DNA of 64,000 bases from Escherichia phage BEU50, in the sequence record OM632671.1; one strand, given 5' to 3'. The translations under genes were made by a program, and so were the position numbers. The notes beneath the pieces were generated by a model. It was not told where the DNA came from. It saw nothing but the letters and a program-made list of their open reading frames with translations, and ran no database searches. Shown here piece after piece: positions 30,382 through 64,000 of the stretch; position 1 is the stretch's first letter, and each line of letters begins with the position of its first letter.

Positions 30382-31023
30382 TTATAATGCTTTTAAACTC
30401 TCTGCGAGAGCTTTAAATGCTTCGTCAGCACTGTTTTTGGTGATTTCCACCGAATTTTCTGATTCTGATATTTGTTTAGGAGTAACCCAAGCATCTGGAG
30501 CAGAAGGTCCCCATACGGCATCTACGCCGACGGTTAATTTAAATCCTTCGTTCACGATACGGTACCCTTTATTGGTGTCGGTTAAAGAACCAAGACCACG
30601 AGAGGAAACACCTGGAATCCAACCAGCTCGTATATTAGCAGCTAATTTATCGCCGGGACCATGGTCGCCTTCAATAATTCTAGCACGTCCATATACATCG
30701 TTTCCTTTCCACCACATATCTTCAATAATGATAGCGGCTTGCATAGGGTCAACATTTGCACGAGGTGGATGGTTTAATTCTCCAAGGGCTTGTTTGGTTG
30801 CGACTTGTTCTTTAATATAGTCACTTACTGCTTTTTCCAAAACGCGTTTAGGATATAAACGTTTATTTCGGTTAACAACCTCTGCCTGAAGAAAAATACC
30901 TTCTATATAAAGCCCTGGTTTTAAGCCAGAATCTTTTCCATCATGAGATTCCAACATTGGAACGCCATCAATAATCTCACCGGGTTGACCCCAAGTTTCA
31001 ATAAGTAACTCGGGTTTATTCAT
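30382..31023 (-). CDS. 21: Prohead protease gp21
   Basis: 213 aa (T4 212 aa); synteny 20-67-68-21-22-23. Confidence 0.9.
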   Translation of the reverse strand: MNKPELLIETWGQPGEIIDGVPMLESHDGKDSGLKPGLYIEGIFLQAEVVNRNKRLYPKRVLEKAVSDYIKEQVATKQALGELNHPPRANVDPMQAAIIIEDMWWKGNDVYGRARIIEGDHGPGDKLAANIRAGWIPGVSSRGLGSLTDTNKGYRIVNEGFKLTVGVDAVWGPSAPDAWVTPKQISESENSVEITKNSADEAFKALAESLKAL

Positions 31024-58588: not shown

Positions 58589-59323
58589 ATGGAGCTAATC
58601 TTTTTAAGTGGCATCAAACGTAGTGGTAAAGACACTACTGCTGATTACATCAATTCAAACTTTAAATCCGTAAAATACCAATTGGCATATCCGATTAAAG
58701 ACGCTCTAGCAATAGCCTGGGGACGTAAACATGCTGAAGATCCTGATGTATTCACAGAGTTGAAATACGAATACTTTGAAGGTGTCGGATATGACCGTGA
58801 AACACCATTAAATCTCAATAAGTTGGATGTTATTGAATTAATGGAAGAAGCGCTAATTTATTTACAAAGTCAATATTTACCAATTAATAATGTTAAAGTA
58901 TTATCATCATTAGAAGGTGGATATTCATATCTAGATATTAAACCATATGAAGCCCTGCGTGAAGCTATAAATAATATCAACGACACATGGTCAATCCGCC
59001 GTCTTATGCAAGCCCTCGGTACGGATGTTGTCGTTAATTTATTTGACCGTATGTATTGGGTTAAACTTTTTGCATTAAACTATATGGATTATATTGGAAG
59101 TGATTTCGATTACTATGTTGTAACCGATACACGCCAAGTCCATGAAATGGAAACCGCCAGAGCGATGGGTGCTACAGTTATTCATGTGGTTCGCTCTGGT
59201 ACGGAATCCACTGATAAACATATTACAGAAGCTGGGTTGCCTATTGAAGAAGGCGATTTAGTTATTACAAACGACGGCTCTTTAGAAGAGCTTTATTCTA
59301 AAATTGAAACAATCTTAAGGTAA
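58589..59323 (+). CDS. 1: dNMP kinase gp1
   Basis: 244 aa, P-loop GIKRSGKDT; T4 gp1 241 aa. Confidence 0.85.
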   Translation: MELIFLSGIKRSGKDTTADYINSNFKSVKYQLAYPIKDALAIAWGRKHAEDPDVFTELKYEYFEGVGYDRETPLNLNKLDVIELMEEALIYLQSQYLPINNVKVLSSLEGGYSYLDIKPYEALREAINNINDTWSIRRLMQALGTDVVVNLFDRMYWVKLFALNYMDYIGSDFDYYVVTDTRQVHEMETARAMGATVIHVVRSGTESTDKHITEAGLPIEEGDLVITNDGSLEELYSKIETILR

Positions 59324-59327
59324 TAAA

Positions 59328-60013
<686 letters not shown>

Positions 60014-60025
60014 TTTCACAAAACA

Positions 60026-60060
60026 GTTTACATAAGGATGATGGCGTGTTACTATCATCC
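60026..60060 (+). promoter_or_regulatory. Early promoter cassette with inverted repeat (GTTTAC, TGtTACTAT, GGATGAT/ATCATCC)
   Basis: GTTTAC 60026-60031, -10 60050-60055, 7-bp inverted repeat arms flanking -10. Confidence 0.55.
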
Positions 60061-60089
60061 TATCAAATAAACGACCTCAAGGAAATAAA

Positions 60090-60377
60090 ATGAAAACCTA
60101 TAAAGAATTTATATCACCTGATGCTAACGTTTCTACTCTAACCGAAGCAACCCTTACTTCCGAAGTTATTAAAGCAAATAAAGGACGTGAGGGTAAACCA
60201 ATGATTGGCCTGGTTGACGGCGAAGAAGTAAAAGGTACTGTTTACTTAGGGGATGGATGGTCTGCTAAGAAAGATGGCGCTACTATTGTTATCTCTCCGG
60301 CTGAAGAGACTGCACTGTTTAAAGCTAAGCATATTTCTGTAGCTCAGCTTAAAATTATTGCAAAAACTCTTCTGTAA
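60090..60377 (+). CDS. ipI: Internal protein I-like capsid-targeted protein
   Basis: 95 aa with N-terminal capsid targeting sequence MKTYKEFIS (T4 CTS consensus MKTYQEFIAE); located next to 57B as ipI in T4. Confidence 0.6.
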   Translation: MKTYKEFISPDANVSTLTEATLTSEVIKANKGREGKPMIGLVDGEEVKGTVYLGDGWSAKKDGATIVISPAEETALFKAKHISVAQLKIIAKTLL

Positions 60378-60380
60378 GTA

Positions 60381-60418
60381 GTTTACATGCTGATAGGACT
60401 ATGTTATAGTAGTCCTAT
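60381..60418 (+). promoter_or_regulatory. Early promoter cassette with perfect 10-bp inverted repeat (GATAGGACTA/TAGTCCTATC)
   Basis: GTTTAC 60381-60386, TGtTATAGT 60402-60410 sits in the 8-nt spacer between arms 60393-60402 and 60409-60418. Confidence 0.6.
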
Positions 60419-60447
60419 CAAAACAAATGAGTAAATGGAGAAATAAA

Positions 60448-60633
60448 ATGAAACGCGCTGAACTGATTCGTAATGTTGCTGTAGTAATTGCTTCAATGGC
60501 TTTTAGTTTTTCGATGTTTGTAGGATTCATTTGTGGACTACTGACAACAACAGAAAATTCTATCTCATTGGTAGTAGCATTTCTAATCGGCTTAATCGCT
60601 ATCGTTATGGATAAAATTGCAAAAGGTGAGTAA
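60448..60633 (+). CDS. Small membrane protein (hypothetical)
   Basis: 61 aa from ATG after GGAGAAATAAA RBS; one or two predicted TM helices. Confidence 0.4.
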   Translation: MKRAELIRNVAVVIASMAFSFSMFVGFICGLLTTTENSISLVVAFLIGLIAIVMDKIAKGE

Positions 60634-60634
60634 A

Positions 60635-60997
60635 ATGAAATATCACGTATATGCGGATTTTGAAGCAAATCCTTCTAAAGACCCTGATTGTCGTTTGATA
60701 CGCAGACCATTTGATTCAGCAGCTCAAGCATGGGCTTGGATTAAAACTTGTACTCCTTCTTACACTTTCTTTGAAGTGGTAGACGATAACGGTGTTCTGC
60801 ATCCAGAACCTACAGAAACTATTAATTTCCTTCTGTTTGCTGGTTACGACTGTTATCCTCTTGGCGGTATTGATGATCTTGTTGCTACAGGAAAAACTGT
60901 TGAAGCTCTTCGCGAAATTTATAAAAACGCGGAAGAAAATTTTGACTGGTATCATATTGTTGATGCTCATACCTTTGAAATGGTGGAACATTCATGA
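60635..60997 (+). CDS. Hypothetical protein
   Basis: 120-aa ORF from ATG 60635 (GGTGAGTAAAATG). Confidence 0.45.
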   Translation: MKYHVYADFEANPSKDPDCRLIRRPFDSAAQAWAWIKTCTPSYTFFEVVDDNGVLHPEPTETINFLLFAGYDCYPLGGIDDLVATGKTVEALREIYKNAEENFDWYHIVDAHTFEMVEHS

Positions 60998-61284
60998 TTC
61001 TTTATGCTAAAGTATCGTCCATTGAGAACGGATATGAAAGCGACCAACGAGCAGCTAAAGCGTTAGTTGATGACTATGGTATTTTGACTAATTTTGAAGT
61101 TGAAAAGGTTTACATCGACCGTTCGTCTTCACAGGTTAAATTACTCTGTGAAGACGATAAATTTAACACAGTTAACTTTGATTTCTTTATTGAAACAGAA
61201 AAAGGCCCTCTTGAATATGATATTTTCAAGAATCCTTTGAAATTACGTTGCATTGAATATAATTACATTAATATGGTACGGTGA
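60994..61284 (+). CDS. Hypothetical protein
   Basis: 96-aa ORF, ATGA coupling with upstream ORF. Confidence 0.45.
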   Translation: MILYAKVSSIENGYESDQRAAKALVDDYGILTNFEVEKVYIDRSSSQVKLLCEDDKFNTVNFDFFIETEKGPLEYDIFKNPLKLRCIEYNYINMVR

Positions 61285-61288
61285 GTAA

Positions 61289-61804
61289 ATGAATATTTGT
61301 TTAGGCAGTACAATTCCTAAGGGTTACGTAATTGATGTCACTACTTGGGAAAATGACGGCGACAACTATAAAACCAAAACATTATTTGGTGTGGAAGAGC
61401 ATGAGCTCCAACAGTTTAAATATCTCTTGAAGAAATTTAAGAGTCGTCATTCCAGCACTAAAGCTGAACGTTACTGTGGTAATACACCATTCAGTGATTG
61501 CTCGCTTTTAATCTATGAATACTTGGTTGAAGGGCTGTTCTCAGACCAGCTTTATCCAGAATTCATTAAAAAGGTCTTTGATATTGAAGTCGACCTTGGT
61601 AATAAATCTGAAGAAGACGAATCGCGTGTATTCGACCTGTTCCATGAGAATGGATATTTGGTATCAGAAGGTCTCATTGATATTCTTGGTCATGCTTCTG
61701 AATATTATGATTATGATTTCTTGCGTGTAGTTGAATGTGTTGAATTTGCTTATATTGAAGAAGAAATCGTTTTGCCAACTGTTAAAATGATTGATTTGCT
61801 TTAA
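61289..61804 (+). CDS. Hypothetical protein
   Basis: 171-aa acidic ORF. Confidence 0.5.
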   Translation: MNICLGSTIPKGYVIDVTTWENDGDNYKTKTLFGVEEHELQQFKYLLKKFKSRHSSTKAERYCGNTPFSDCSLLIYEYLVEGLFSDQLYPEFIKKVFDIEVDLGNKSEEDESRVFDLFHENGYLVSEGLIDILGHASEYYDYDFLRVVECVEFAYIEEEIVLPTVKMIDLL

Positions 61805-61883
61805 GAATTATGTGTTATTATTAATTCGTACCCTCTATTACCAAAGGTGCTCTAAAGTGCCTTTCATAATAGAAAGTTATTTA

Positions 61884-61957
61884 GGCCCTGTAGCTCAATG
61901 GTTAGCAGCAGTCCCCTCATAAGGGAAAGGTTACCAGTTCGAATCTGGTCTGGGTCA
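61884..61957 (+). tRNA. tRNA with CAU anticodon (Ile2-type lysidine tRNA or Met)
   Basis: Manual fold: acceptor GGCCCTG/CTGGGTC (one mismatch), D-arm GCTC, anticodon loop CTCATAA, T-arm ACCAG-TTCGAAT-CTGGT; 5' end resembles bacterial tRNA-Ile2; CCA not encoded. Confidence 0.6.
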
Positions 61958-61963
61958 TATATT

Positions 61964-62040
61964 CGAGGCATAGCTCAATTGTATGGAGCAACGGACTTCT
62001 AATCCGTAGGTTGAAGGTTAGAATCCTTCTGTCTCGACCA
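61964..62040 (+). tRNA. tRNA-Arg (anticodon UCU)
   Basis: Manual fold: acceptor CGAGGCA/TGTCTCG, D-stem GCTC/GAGC, anticodon stem ACGGA/TCCGT with loop CTTCTAA, T-arm GAAGG-TTAGAAT-CCTTC, encoded CCA. Confidence 0.75.
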
Positions 62041-62058
62041 ACTTTAAGTGAGGAAAAT

Positions 62059-62403
62059 ATGAAAGGCAATATTTATCTGGTAGTTCATGATTTAACGTTT
62101 TATTTTAACGAATATGATACAGTTATTTCTCATCGATTGATTAATTCGCTGTATCAGCATGCCGATTACATTTATGTTCAAAATGAATTTGGACATTGGA
62201 AGTTCATTAAAAATCGTTACGGGTTAACTAGTTTTGAATACTTTGACCGTAAAGACCTTTTAAACGAAATCCCATTGCAACATCGATTCCAGAAACGCGA
62301 ATCATTATATTATTGCCGTCATATACCAAACGCCGAATGTGTTAATGAAGCGATTAATCTATGGCGTCGGCGTCGAGAGCAAATTGATGATATGCCAAAA
62401 TAA
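62059..62403 (+). CDS. Hypothetical protein
   Basis: 114-aa ORF from ATG 62059 (GAGGAAAATATG) just after tRNA-Arg. Confidence 0.5.
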   Translation: MKGNIYLVVHDLTFYFNEYDTVISHRLINSLYQHADYIYVQNEFGHWKFIKNRYGLTSFEYFDRKDLLNEIPLQHRFQKRESLYYCRHIPNAECVNEAINLWRRRREQIDDMPK

Positions 62404-62700
62404 GAAGCCGGGTCGCTACCGGTAAGTCGTCGGACTGATGTTCCCTGAGTAAGGACTGGTCTTAATAAATCTTTACGATTTGTTAATATCCCCTTACATC
62501 ACAGCAGAAACGGCGCACAGAATTATCGATTCGAGGAAATATCTTTGCCGTAAGCCGAGTAGCGTTTTTGACGGAACGTTCGGATATGGTCGAGATATGG
62601 CCTTTTAAAAATATTGAGTAGCGTCAACTGCTTAATAACCGGGTTCGAATCCCGGCGTTTCGTACAAACACTTGCCTTAGCAGGTGGAAACCCCGACAAG
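62404..62700 (+). ncRNA. Putative small stable RNA region with tRNA-like 3' module (compare T4 species 1/2 RNAs, rnaC/rnaD)
   Basis: Non-coding stretch containing a perfect T-arm CCGGG-TTCGAAT-CCCGG (62639-62655) and an acceptor-like pairing CGGAACG/CGTTTCG, but no canonical D or anticodon arm. Confidence 0.3.
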
Positions 62701-62715
62701 GTTGCCGCAAGGCTT

Positions 62716-62744
62716 AGCCCCTTCCGAAAGGTTGGGGCTTTTTG
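62716..62744 (+). terminator. Intrinsic terminator (AGCCCC-UU-CC-GAAA-GG-UU-GGGGCU plus T-run)
   Basis: Hairpin with GNRA loop followed by TTTTT; near-identical copy at 63259-63287. Confidence 0.55.
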
Positions 62745-62788
62745 GCATAATAATAAATAGATAAGTTAATTAACTTAGGAAAAGCAAC

Positions 62789-63253
62789 ATGAAATCATAC
62801 GCTGAATTTTTGACTGAACAATCTAGTTCAGATGTAAAAGCCGCTGCGATTGCAGCAATTCAAGCAGGTAAATATTCTTACAAAGACGCCTCTGATGAAG
62901 AACGTTTCCGTTTTATTAGAGATTTTAAAGCCGAAGGTTTTACTAATGCTAATACTGTTAGCCGAGTTTTTAAAAGCCTAGCTGCATCAGGTGAATTGTT
63001 CCAGAAAGCTACAGGTAAAGCACCTGCGCCAAAAGCGGACCCTAAAGCAGCTCAAGAAAAAAATATCGCCAAAGGAATTATTTCTAAGTATGAAGCAATT
63101 CTTAAAGAGCTTTTAGTAATCAAAACAGAAGGACAGAAACTGGCACGAGCACATAGCTTCAAAGATAATCCTCACGCTCATAGCCTTGAGTATGTTGAAG
63201 ATATCCAAAAACTTATTAAAGACCGTATCTGGTCTGCTAAACAAATTAAATAA
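62789..63253 (+). CDS. Putative capsid-targeted internal protein (CTS-bearing)
   Basis: 154 aa beginning MKSYAEFLTEQ, matching the T4 internal-protein capsid targeting sequence and gp21 cleavage motif L-x-E; lysine/alanine-rich. Confidence 0.5.
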   Translation: MKSYAEFLTEQSSSDVKAAAIAAIQAGKYSYKDASDEERFRFIRDFKAEGFTNANTVSRVFKSLAASGELFQKATGKAPAPKADPKAAQEKNIAKGIISKYEAILKELLVIKTEGQKLARAHSFKDNPHAHSLEYVEDIQKLIKDRIWSAKQIK

Positions 63254-63258
63254 TAGAA

Positions 63259-63287
63259 TGCCCCTTCCTTATGGTTGGGGCTTTTTG
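63259..63287 (+). terminator. Intrinsic terminator (second copy of the GCCCCTTCC...GGTTGGGGC hairpin plus T-run)
   Basis: GCCCCTTCCTTATGGTTGGGGCTTTTT; direct repeat of 62716-62744. Confidence 0.55.
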
Positions 63288-63319
63288 GCATCTAGGGCAT
63301 AAAAATATTTCATAAAGAT

Positions 63320-63349
63320 GTTTACTTCTTCTAAGGACATGATACTATA
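63320..63349 (+). promoter_or_regulatory. Early promoter cassette (GTTTAC, TGATACTAT)
   Basis: GTTTAC 63320-63325, -10 63344-63349; leader GACTTATCAACCACAGAGGAG repeated at 63721-63745. Confidence 0.55.
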
Positions 63350-63376
63350 GACTTATCAACCACAGAGGAGAATATT

Positions 63377-63682
63377 ATGAGTCTTTACACTGAACTGAAT
63401 AAAAAATCTGAAGAATCTGCTGAAACTATTTTTAAAAACGTGCAAAAGCGTATTTTAGAAAAGATGTATAACACTGCAGCTAAAGGTGAAAAATCTTGCC
63501 GGTTCCCGATGAGGTGTTCTTCCGATTTATGCGCAAATACTATTGAATGGCTGGAAAGTGAAGGTCTTACGGTAGAGAAAAACCCGGCGATTTCTATTGA
63601 CAGTGAATCATATATTAGTATTTCTTGGGATAAACCACGTATGAATGAAGGACACTACAAGTTGTTAAGTTGGAAAAATTAA
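63377..63682 (+). CDS. Hypothetical protein
   Basis: 101-aa ORF downstream of promoter cassette. Confidence 0.5.
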   Translation: MSLYTELNKKSEESAETIFKNVQKRILEKMYNTAAKGEKSCRFPMRCSSDLCANTIEWLESEGLTVEKNPAISIDSESYISISWDKPRMNEGHYKLLSWKN

Positions 63683-63690
63683 AAATAATG

Positions 63691-63720
63691 ATGTACAAGC
63701 ACCAAGGATGGTGATACTAT
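63691..63720 (+). promoter_or_regulatory. Early promoter cassette (ATGTAC, TGATACTAT)
   Basis: -10 TACTAT 63715-63720 with upstream TG; leader shared with 63350-63375. Confidence 0.5.
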
Positions 63721-63750
63721 AGACTTATCAACTACAGAGGAGTAAACAAA

Positions 63751-63915
63751 ATGACTACTTTAATTATTTGGTTCGATGAAAATGAAGAAACATACTGTGT
63801 GAATATTGGTGAAAGTCCAATGCCTGAATTTGAATCCTCAGATAAAAACTCTGTTGTATCTTGGGCTGAAGGTTATAAAGCAGCTAAAGGTGACGTTGAA
63901 ATAATTTACATCTAA
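63751..63915 (+). CDS. Hypothetical small protein
   Basis: 54-aa ORF (MTTLIIWFDENEETY...) below the ORF-track size cut-off, with GAGGAGTAAACAAAATG start context. Confidence 0.35.
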   Translation: MTTLIIWFDENEETYCVNIGESPMPEFESSDKNSVVSWAEGYKAAKGDVEIIYI

Positions 63916-63927
63916 GTAAGTTTATGT

Positions 63928-63948
63928 TATAGTAGTCCTATCAAATCA
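63928..63948 (+). promoter_or_regulatory. Early promoter -10 plus shared leader (TGtTATAGTAGTCCTATCAAA)
   Basis: Same TATAGTAGTCCTATCA module as at 1993-2008, 2505-2520 and 60405-60420. Confidence 0.45.
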
Positions 63949-63961
63949 AGAGGAAAACAAA

Positions 63962-64000
63962 ATGGCTAAAGTTAGTATTGATGTCGTTGATTATGAATAC
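63962..64000 (+). CDS. Hypothetical protein, 5' end only (window edge)
   Basis: ATG 63962 with GAGGAAAACAAAATG context; ORF runs off the window. Confidence 0.3.
   Translation, partial: MAKVSIDVVDYEY

What the first reader, a model, noticed from the sequence alone, without database searches (positions are those of the whole stretch)
60090..60377. ipI-like internal protein with a variant capsid targeting sequence
The 95-aa ORF next to 57B begins MKTYKEFIS..., with the first possible L-x-E cleavage motif only at LTE (residues 17-19) rather than at residue 8-10 as in T4 IPI. Size and position match T4 ipI (anti-GmrSD), but the mature protein may differ in N-terminus and specificity.
Basis: partly seen in the sequence, partly recalled or inferred. 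Interest (0 to 1): 0.4.

Follow-up and report, generated by a model that had tools for sequence, protein, structure and literature searches.

The report
Ordinary RB69-type ipI anti-restriction gene
This gene is the normal, already catalogued copy of phage T4's internal protein I (an injected inhibitor of the host GmrSD restriction enzyme) in an RB69-like coliphage, and its "unusual" targeting leader is the same 19-residue leader that T4's own protein has.

Summary
The 95-aa ORF at 60090..60377 (+) is real. It is a full-length ortholog of T4 internal protein I (IPI). Residues 20-95 match Pfam IPI_T4 end to end (166.8 bits). They are 71/76 identical to the solved mature protein IPI* (PDB 2JUB), which starts at the residue aligned with A20. 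T4's own precursor is also 95 aa: MKTFKEFTSTTTPVSTITE|ATLTSEV. It has no L/I-x-E motif at residues 8-10, and its cleavage motif lies at 17-19. The window's LTE(17-19) is therefore the canonical IPI site, not a variant. All 17 IPI-family representatives examined have their first motif at residues 11-20, directly before the mature domain. The window comes from a Mosigvirus (98.8% identical to phage a20 over 8 kb). The protein is 100% identical in phages a20 and moskry. It differs from RB69 IPI at two residues: V11D in the leader and S40G in the mature part. The mature domain is under strong purifying selection (dN/dS about 0.035 against T4). The leader spacer, residues 8-13, is relaxed. Synteny, the flanking early-promoter/hairpin motifs and a gp21 protease ortholog are all present. 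Verdict: already known, low interest.

The parts
60027..60055 (+). Early-type promoter-like site TTTACA-N17-TACTAT (TG before the -10), upstream of ipI. It corresponds in position to promoter PE2 annotated in T4 record X03016.
   Evidence: 5 promoter-like sites found against 1.7 expected in shuffles; T4 annotation; matches the PeSL consensus TTTACW-N17-TAYWAT quoted in PMC4122927. Consensus match only; activity not shown.
60035..60061 (+). Hairpin (8-bp perfect stem AGGATGAT/ATCATCCT, 11-nt loop) overlapping the upstream promoter. Together they form a PeSL-type promoter/stem-loop motif.
   Evidence: inverted repeat I2; -14.3 kcal/mol, z = -3.27, 0 of 200 shuffles fold as well; T4 has an annotated stem-loop at the same place.
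60079..60085 (+). Shine-Dalgarno-like AAGGAAA, 4 nt before the ATG.
   Evidence: Read directly from the sequence. The ORF listing finds no in-frame start upstream of 60090.
60090..60377 (+). ipI coding sequence: 95-aa IPI precursor, stop codon included.
   Evidence: (PHROG 4363 internal virion protein, 1e-47).
60090..60146 (+). Propeptide / capsid targeting sequence, residues 1-19 (MKTYKEFISPDANVSTLTE). It has a conserved core MKT[YF]xEF, a variable spacer at residues 8-13, and the conserved stretch VST(L/I)TE ending in the gp21 cleavage motif.
   Evidence: alignment and motif positions; 7 of 19 aa differ from T4, dN 0.26; residues 2-16 have pLDDT < 50. Cleavage is inferred by homology, not shown here.
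60147..60374 (+). Predicted mature IPI* (76 aa, ATLTSEV...KTLL), the GmrSD-inhibitor domain.
   Evidence: Pfam PF11634, residues 20-95 = profile positions 1-76 of 76, 166.8 bits; PDB 2JUB residues 1-76, 71/76 identical, E 2.3e-41; dN 0.030, dS 0.84 against T4.
60382..60410 (+). Early-type promoter-like site TTTACA-N17-TATAGT downstream of ipI, serving trna.4. It corresponds in position to PE1 of T4.
   Evidence: 10 of 12 matches, TG before the -10.
60391..60420 (+). Hairpin (11-bp perfect stem TGATAGGACTA/TAGTCCTATCA, 8-nt loop) just after the ipI stop codon, overlapping the downstream promoter. It is a likely ipI terminator or PeSL stem-loop. There is no T-run after it.
   Evidence: I1; -18 kcal/mol, z = -4.85; T4 has a 'pot. 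IpI terminator' stem-loop at the same place; one search found no canonical intrinsic terminator.
30391..31023 (-). Ortholog of T4 gp21 prohead protease, the enzyme that cuts after (L/I)-x-E. It is encoded in the same window and is the trans-acting partner of the propeptide.
   Evidence: tblastn with T4 gp21: 186/211 identical, 88%, E 4e-126.

Best explanation
This is the ipI gene of an RB69-like (Mosigvirus) T-even phage. It is a direct ortholog of T4 internal protein I.

The mechanism below is transferred from T4 and RB69; it was not shown here. The 95-aa precursor is made late in infection. Its N-terminal capsid targeting sequence (core MKTYKEF) binds it to the scaffolding core of the prohead. 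The prohead protease gp21 cuts after Glu19 (L17-T18-E19 | A20), removing a 19-residue propeptide. The 76-residue mature IPI* stays in the head, at about 360 copies in T4, and is injected with the DNA. In the host it binds and inhibits a CT596-type GmrSD type IV restriction endonuclease, which would otherwise cut the sugar-modified cytosine DNA.

The leader is the normal IPI leader, not a variant. The gene sits as a cassette between two early-promoter/hairpin (PeSL-type) motifs, in a locus where related phages carry different ip genes.
For: - Homology: Pfam IPI_T4 scores 166.8 bits (cut-off 25) and covers residues 20-95 as profile positions 1-76 of 76. PHROG 4363 'internal virion protein' scores 1e-47. 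PDB 2JUB (T4 IPI*, 76 aa) aligns residue 1 to A20 and is 71/76 identical.
- Same architecture as T4: both precursors are 95 aa, with ITE in T4 and LTE here at residues 17-19.
- Family-wide pattern: all 17 representatives lack a motif at 8-10. Their first (L/I)xE lies at residues 11-20 and aligns directly before the mature domain.
[quoted passage not shown] The mature form is a '76-residue proteolyzed' protein that inhibits GmrS/GmrD (PMC3012670). RB69 IPI has 'four residues different' from T4 and prevents GmrSD restriction of RB69 (PMC6024577).
- Relation to RB69: the window protein differs from RB69 IPI only at V11D and S40G.
- Selection: mature domain dN 0.030 / dS 0.84 against T4, so it is a conserved functional protein.
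- Synteny with T4: 4-2-3-1-57A-57B-ipI-trna.4-trna.3-trna.2.
- Protease: a gp21 ortholog, 88% identical, is in the window.
- Public records: the protein is identical in phages a20 and moskry, where it is annotated as an internal virion / internal head protein. It is at least 95% identical in 108 phage records.
Against: - Nothing in the sequence contradicts this reading.
- Cleavage, packaging, injection and GmrSD inhibition are inferred by homology, not observed for this allele.
- One old record (X03016, 1985) annotates mature T4 IpI as 80 aa starting at residue 16. That conflicts with the 76-aa protein of PDB 2JUB and the reviews.
- The AlphaFold model is only moderate (pLDDT 67.6). It superposes poorly on 2JUB (TM 0.39-0.46), although 2JUB is its only significant hit.
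- No consensus late promoter lies immediately upstream. The nearest TATAAATA motifs on the + strand are at 58966 and 56541, so late expression would need read-through. That is an inference.
Confidence: 0.93

Rival explanations
1. This is an IPI ortholog whose substitutions shift its target range. The candidates are the RB69-type set I47V, A84V, H86Q, N93T, plus S40G, which within the T4 / RB69 / window comparison is found only in the window allele. The allele would then inhibit a different subset of GmrSD enzymes than T4 IPI*, fitted to a phage with arabinosylated rather than glucosylated cytosine DNA.
For: - There are five mature-domain differences from T4 and one from RB69.
- Three of them lie in the predicted C-terminal helix, residues 84-94.
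- Ip proteins are strictly specific for their cognate GmrSD variants (PMC12373910).
- Thomas et al. left open whether the four RB69 IPI differences or the arabinose modification explain RB69's sensitivity to UTI89 GmrSD (PMC6024577).
- Mosigvirus DNA carries arabinosyl cytosines (PMC13390438).
Against: - The substitutions are conservative.
- dN/dS of about 0.035 indicates purifying selection, not diversifying selection.
- Gly at position 40 also occurs in distant family members (P0037, P0040), so it lies within normal family variation.
- RB69 IPI is reported to protect against the same CT596 enzyme (PMC6024577).
Confidence: 0.15
2. One reading: a variant capsid targeting sequence gives a different mature N-terminus from T4 IPI, or altered packaging.
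For: The leader differs from T4's at 7 of 19 residues (F4Y, T8I, T10P, T11D, T12A, P13N, I17L).
Against: - Leader length, motif position and the residues around the scissile bond (VST-L/I-TE|ATLTSEV) are conserved.
- T4 IPI has no motif at 8-10 either.
- L and I are both accepted by gp21 (L/I-X-E; PMC9026906).
- Y4 and I8 are the residues found in the T4 IPII/IPIII leader MKTYQEFIAE.
- The differences cluster in the spacer, residues 8-13, which varies across the whole family.
Confidence: 0.03
3. The precursor is cut elsewhere, for example between residues 15 and 16 to give an 80-aa mature protein, as annotated in GenBank X03016.
For: X03016 carries the feature 'mature IpI (aa 1-80)' starting at codon 16.
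Against: - S15|T16 does not follow a Glu and does not fit the gp21 L/I-X-E rule (PMC9026906).
- The protein studied by NMR is 76 aa and starts at ATLTSEV.
- Reviews state a 76-residue mature form (PMC3012670).
Confidence: 0.03

Closest known systems
Phage RB69 IpI (AY303349, AAP76054; Mosigvirus RB69)
   Same: The same gene at the same locus. The proteins are 93/95 identical over the T4-equivalent precursor. Both have the leader MKTYKEFISP-ANVSTLTE, and both carry the same four mature-domain differences from T4 (I47V, A84V, H86Q, N93T). RB69 IPI is reported to prevent GmrSD restriction of RB69 (PMC6024577).
   Different: The window has V11D in the leader spacer and S40G in the mature domain. 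RB69 carries an extra CTS-bearing gene (ORF156c, MKTYQEFIAE...) between 57B and ipI, which the window lacks. The RB69 record also annotates a start 4 codons further upstream.
Phage T4 internal protein I / IPI* (NP_049749; PDB 2JUB; Pfam PF11634 IPI_T4)
   Same: Both are 95-aa precursors with a 19-aa propeptide ending in (I/L)TE and a 76-aa mature domain (93% identical). Both lie between 57B and trna.4 and are flanked by an early promoter plus hairpin on each side.
   Different: There are 7 leader and 5 mature-domain substitutions. The host phage belongs to a different genus, whose DNA carries arabinosyl rather than glucosyl-hydroxymethyl cytosines (PMC13390438).
T4 IPII and IPIII (10-residue capsid targeting sequence MKTYQEFIAE)
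   Same: They share the CTS core MKT-Y-x-E-F and the same packaging, cleavage and injection logic. They are also GmrSD-family inhibitors (PMC12373910).
   Different: Their cleavage motif lies at residues 8-10 (IAE) and their leader is 10 aa. Their mature domains are unrelated in sequence to IPI.
PeSL (promoter-early stem-loop) cassettes of T4-type phages (Arbiol et al. 2010; Comeau et al. 2014)
   Same: TTTACA-N17-TA(C/T)(T/A)(A/G)T promoters overlap hairpins with AGGA...TCCT stems on both sides of ipI. This matches the T4/PST-type consensus TTTACW-N17-TAYWAT with stem AGNA...TCNT (PMC4122927). Related Mosigviruses keep the flanks but carry other ip genes.
   Different: The downstream -10 hexamer (TATAGT) departs from the consensus at one position. 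Recombination at these motifs was not demonstrated here.

Membership tests
IPI_T4 (Pfam PF11634; T4 internal protein I) | Sequence homology over the whole 76-residue mature IPI* domain | tested here: met
   166.8 bits against a cut-off of 25, residues 20-95 = profile positions 1-76 of 76. 71/76 identical to PDB 2JUB, E 2.3e-41.
IPI_T4 (Pfam PF11634; T4 internal protein I) | N-terminal capsid targeting sequence core (M-K-T-Y/F-x-E/D-F) | tested here: met
   The ORF begins MKTYKEF. M1, K2, T3 and F7 are invariant and E6 nearly invariant in 17 family representatives.
IPI_T4 (Pfam PF11634; T4 internal protein I) | gp21 cleavage motif (L/I)-x-E directly before the mature N-terminus, giving a leader of about 19 residues (not 10) | tested here: met
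   LTE lies at 17-19, followed by ATLTSEV. T4 has ITE at 17-19. All 17 representatives have the motif at residues 11-20 and none at 8-10.
IPI_T4 (Pfam PF11634; T4 internal protein I) | Genomic position between 57B and the trna.4-trna.2 genes, next to the tRNA cluster | tested here: met
   The gene order matches T4 and RB69. tRNA-Met and tRNA-Arg lie at 61884-62040.
IPI_T4 (Pfam PF11634; T4 internal protein I) | A prohead protease gp21 is encoded by the same phage | tested here: met
   tblastn with T4 gp21 hits window 31023..30391 (-), 88% identity, E 4e-126.
IPI_T4 (Pfam PF11634; T4 internal protein I) | IPI* fold (beta sheets flanked by N- and C-terminal helices) | tested here: inconclusive
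   The AlphaFold2 model has mean pLDDT 67.6 and the order helix 19-29, strands, helix 84-94. 2JUB is its only significant PDB hit (E 4.5e-7), but the TM-score is only 0.39-0.46 and the rmsd 7.1. At 93% sequence identity the fold is hardly in doubt.
IPI_T4 (Pfam PF11634; T4 internal protein I) | Proteolytic processing, packaging in the head and injection with the DNA | not testable with these tools
   Needs virion proteomics or N-terminal sequencing.
IPI_T4 (Pfam PF11634; T4 internal protein I) | Inhibition of a CT596-type GmrSD type IV restriction endonuclease | not testable with these tools
   Needs plating or co-expression assays. It is reported for T4 IPI and RB69 IPI (PMC4437046; PMC6024577).
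PeSL promoter/stem-loop cassette boundary (T4/PST type) | Early promoter TTTACW-N17-TAYWAT overlapping a stem-loop with AGNA...TCNT arms, flanking a variable gene | tested here: met
   Upstream: TTTACA-N17-TACTAT with stem AGGATGAT/ATCATCCT. Downstream: TTTACA-N17-TATAGT (one departure from the consensus) with stem TGATAGGACTA/TAGTCCTATCA. Consensus from PMC4122927. The content of the locus differs in phages SF and RB69.

The most novel reading that the evidence does not exclude
The RB69-type IPI* alleles, and in particular the S40G change, have a different GmrSD inhibition spectrum from T4 IPI*. S40G is residue 21 of the mature protein. Within the T4 / RB69 / window comparison it is found only in the window allele, which phages a20 and moskry share exactly. 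If so, a handful of surface substitutions would retune an injected anti-restriction protein to the restriction enzymes met by phages with arabinosylated DNA.
Probability: 0.12. Interest if true: 0.3.

Novelty: already known. Interest (0 to 1): 0.07.

Why it matters
This matters little beyond correct annotation. The gene shows that this Mosigvirus carries the standard injected GmrSD inhibitor, next to the anti-CBASS gene 57B/Acb1. That is useful for predicting host range against E. coli strains with CT596-type type IV restriction.

The one open biological question it touches was already raised by Thomas et al. 2018: whether the few RB69-type substitutions in IPI* change which GmrSD variants are blocked. 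The check also corrects a factual slip that could spread into annotation. T4 IPI has a 19-residue leader; the 10-residue leader belongs to IPII and IPIII.

Tried and rejected
- Variant cleavage site: rejected after aligning the ORF with T4 IPI, PDB 2JUB and 15 cluster representatives.
- Upstream alternative start, as in the RB69 annotation (MEPK-MKTY...): the window has no in-frame start codon upstream of 60090.
- The 33-aa TTG ORF at 59992..60093, annotated in phage a20 as a hypothetical protein: it lies across the promoter/hairpin in the 57B-ipI spacer and T4 has no counterpart. I judge it probably spurious but did not test it further.
- Antisense ORFs over the region, such as 60399..60668 (-): they overlap the conserved trna.4 gene and I did not pursue them.
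- Recent horizontal transfer from a Tequatrovirus as an explanation for the high identity to T4: not supported. dS is about 0.8, so the DNA is as diverged as expected and the protein is simply conserved.
- Structure prediction: it gave only a moderate model and adds little beyond sequence identity.
- Primary papers: Bair 2007, Rifat 2008, Repoila 1994 and Isobe 1976 are not held in the library. The 76-residue mature form and the L/I-X-E rule are therefore cited from reviews and from the PDB chain.
- Canonical intrinsic terminator after ipI: none was found. There is only a strong hairpin without a T-run.
- Rfam scan of 59000-64000: it found only the two tRNAs.

Full report
**The observation.** The ORF at 60090..60377 (+) exists as described: ATG start, 95 codons, MKTYKEFISPDANVSTLTEATLTSEV.... 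A motif scan shows that LTE at residues 17-19 is the only (L/I)-x-E in the whole protein. No in-frame start codon lies upstream. An AAGGAAA Shine-Dalgarno-like sequence precedes the ATG. The sequence part of the finding is therefore correct.

**What the gene is.**
- Pfam IPI_T4 (PF11634, 'Nuclease inhibitor from bacteriophage T4') matches residues 20-95 to profile positions 1-76 of 76, at 166.8 bits against a cut-off of 25.
- PHROG 4363 'internal virion protein' matches at 1e-47.
- The only solved relative is PDB 2JUB, the 76-residue mature T4 IPI*. Its residue 1 aligns with A20 of the ORF, and 71 of 76 positions are identical.
- Aligned with the T4 gene product itself (NC_000866 73591-73878), both precursors are 95 aa and 87% identical.

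T4 reads MKTFKEFTSTTTPVSTITE|ATLTSEV. The window reads MKTYKEFISPDANVSTLTE|ATLTSEV.

**The 'variant' leader.** T4 IPI has no cleavage motif at residues 8-10, where it reads T-S-T. Its motif is ITE at 17-19, the same position as the window's LTE. The leader with I-A-E at 8-10 (MKTYQEFIAE) belongs to T4 IPII and IPIII, which I translated from the T4 record.

The literature agrees. [quoted passage not shown] Across 17 representatives of the family (41 clusters found in 5.8 billion proteins), none has a motif at 8-10. All have their first (L/I)xE at residues 11-20, aligned directly in front of the mature domain. The premise of the finding is a misremembered T4 sequence, and the window's leader is the canonical IPI leader.

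One old GenBank record (X03016) annotates an 80-aa mature IpI starting at residue 16. That site follows no Glu and conflicts with 2JUB, so I treat it as an outdated annotation.

**Source of the window and how common the allele is.** The 8 kb around the gene is 98.8% identical to Escherichia phage a20, a Mosigvirus. It is about 97% identical to many other RB69-like phages.

The protein is 100% identical in a20 and moskry, where it is annotated 'internal virion protein' / 'internal head protein'. It is at least 95% identical in 108 phage records and is found in 292 records in all.

Against RB69 IpI it differs at two residues: V11D in the leader spacer and S40G in the mature part. RB69 and the window share the four mature-domain differences from T4: I47V, A84V, H86Q and N93T. 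These are the 'four residues different' that Thomas et al. describe for RB69 IPI. They state that RB69 IPI prevents GmrSD restriction of RB69 (PMC6024577). Gly at position 40 also occurs in distant family members.

**Selection.**
- Mature domain against T4: 33 nucleotide differences but only 5 amino-acid differences (dN 0.030, dS 0.84, ratio about 0.035).
- Leader against T4: 7 of 19 amino acids differ (dN 0.26, dS 1.07), concentrated in residues 8-13.

The picture is a strongly conserved inhibitor domain, a conserved targeting core (MKT-Y/F-x-E-F), a conserved cleavage box (VST-L/I-TE) and a free spacer between them. The high dS argues against recent transfer from a Tequatrovirus. The neighbouring genes are 62-82% identical to T4 at the nucleotide level, against 84% for ipI.

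**Context and parts.** The gene order 4-2-3-1-57A-57B-ipI-trna.4-trna.3-trna.2, followed by tRNA genes, matches T4 and RB69.

The gene is bracketed by two early-type promoter-like sites, each overlapping a strong hairpin:

| Side | Promoter-like site | Hairpin stem | Fold z-score |
|---|---|---|---|
| Upstream | TTTACA-N17-TACTAT, 60027-60055 | 60035-42 / 60054-61 | -3.3 |
| Downstream | TTTACA-N17-TATAGT, 60382-60410 | 60391-401 / 60410-420 | -4.9 |

T4 has annotated promoters (PE2, PE1) and stem-loops at the same places. The motifs fit the T4/PST-type PeSL consensus TTTACW-N17-TAYWAT with stem AGNA...TCNT (PMC4122927).

In line with cassette exchange at such motifs, some Mosigviruses keep the flanks but carry other CTS-bearing genes:
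- Phage SF has two different ip genes and no ipI.
- RB69 has an extra one (ORF156c) in front of ipI.
- The 34 nt spanning the ribosome-binding site and the first CTS codons are 97% identical in the ip genes of Klebsiella phages.

The trans-acting protease is present: a gp21 ortholog, 88% identical to T4's, lies at 31023..30391 on the minus strand. No consensus late promoter lies directly upstream of ipI. The nearest TATAAATA motifs on the + strand are at 58966 and 56541, so late expression by read-through is an inference.

**Mechanism.** Shown here: homology, architecture, synteny, presence of the protease, and purifying selection.

Inferred from T4 and RB69 work:
1. The leader targets the precursor to the scaffolding core.
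2. gp21 cuts after E19.
3. The 76-aa IPI* is packaged (about 360 copies in T4; PMC9026906 Table 1).
4. It is injected with the DNA.
5. It inhibits CT596-type GmrSD. In T4, loss of ip1 lowers plating about 10^6-fold on strains expressing GmrSD (PMC4437046).

T4's Ip1, Ip2 and Ip3 each block only their own GmrSD variant (PMC12373910).

**Structure.** An AlphaFold2 model built on the 17-sequence alignment is moderate, with mean pLDDT 67.6. The leader is disordered (residues 2-16 below 50). The mature part has an N-terminal helix, beta strands and a C-terminal helix, which agrees with the published description. Its only significant PDB match is 2JUB (E 4.5e-7), but the superposition is poor (TM 0.39-0.46). 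The model adds nothing beyond the 93% sequence identity.

**What remains open.** Mosigvirus DNA carries arabinosylated cytosines rather than glucosyl-hmC (PMC6024577; PMC13390438). Thomas et al. left open whether the four RB69-type substitutions or the modification explain RB69's sensitivity to UTI89 GmrSD. The window allele adds one more substitution, S40G. A specificity shift is possible but unsupported, and I give it about 12-15%.

**Verdict.** This is a correctly spotted but entirely ordinary ipI gene. The exact protein is already in public records, and a two-residue neighbour has been studied experimentally. The claimed peculiarity does not exist. Interest is low.

Noticed in passing
window 62789..63253 (+): A 154-aa ORF starts MKSYAEFLTE|QSSS, a canonical 10-residue CTS-like leader with LTE at residues 8-10. 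It is the only other ORF in the 64-kb window with such an N-terminus. It matches PHROG 2280 'unknown function' (1e-53), and only its N-terminus weakly hits an 'internal virion protein' PHROG. It is annotated 'hypothetical protein' wherever an annotation is shown among the sampled rows of its 511 phage records. It shows no clear similarity to T4 e.5 or e.6 (24-25% identity in the alignment). Homologs keep an L-x-E at 8-10: HY01 has MKSYAQFLNE, and the 39%-identical Klebsiella phage kv_tblp5 has MITFNDILAE. It is a candidate unnamed injected internal protein, possibly another anti-restriction factor.
   Followed up: partly
window 59558..60013 (+): Gene 57B, directly upstream of ipI, matches Pfam Acb1 (anti-CBASS nuclease) at 197 bits. 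Two anti-defence genes therefore sit side by side.
   Followed up: no
window 60014..60089 compared with L005 (RB69) 1055-1492 and L006 (phage SF) 800-1580: The ipI locus is polymorphic within Mosigvirus. RB69 has an extra CTS gene (ORF156c, MKTYQEFIAE|ATKAD) between 57B and ipI. Phage SF has an ORF156c-like gene plus another ip gene (MKTFNEFISE|SSG) and no ipI. The window has ipI alone.
   Followed up: partly
window 59992..60093 (+): A 33-aa TTG-initiated ORF, annotated as a hypothetical protein in phage a20 (a20_258), lies across the 57B-ipI spacer, on top of the promoter/hairpin. It is probably an annotation artefact.
   Followed up: no
L002 (GenBank X03016) 646-885: This 1985 T4 record annotates mature IpI as 80 aa starting at precursor residue 16. 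That conflicts with the 76-aa IPI* of PDB 2JUB and the reviews.
   Followed up: partly
window 61884..62040 (+) and 62480..62760 (+): Only two tRNA genes are present (Met-CAT and Arg-TCT), where T4 has eight. The two short ORFs that a20 annotates after them (42 and 48 aa) lie where T4 has the small stable RNAs rnaC and rnaD. Rfam finds nothing there.
   Followed up: no
window 60079..60112 (+): The ribosome-binding site plus the first eight CTS codons (34 nt) are 97% identical at the DNA level to the starts of internal head protein genes in many Klebsiella T4-like phages, whose mature domains differ. This is consistent with the CTS-coding DNA serving as a recombination handle for swapping ip cassettes.
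   Followed up: no
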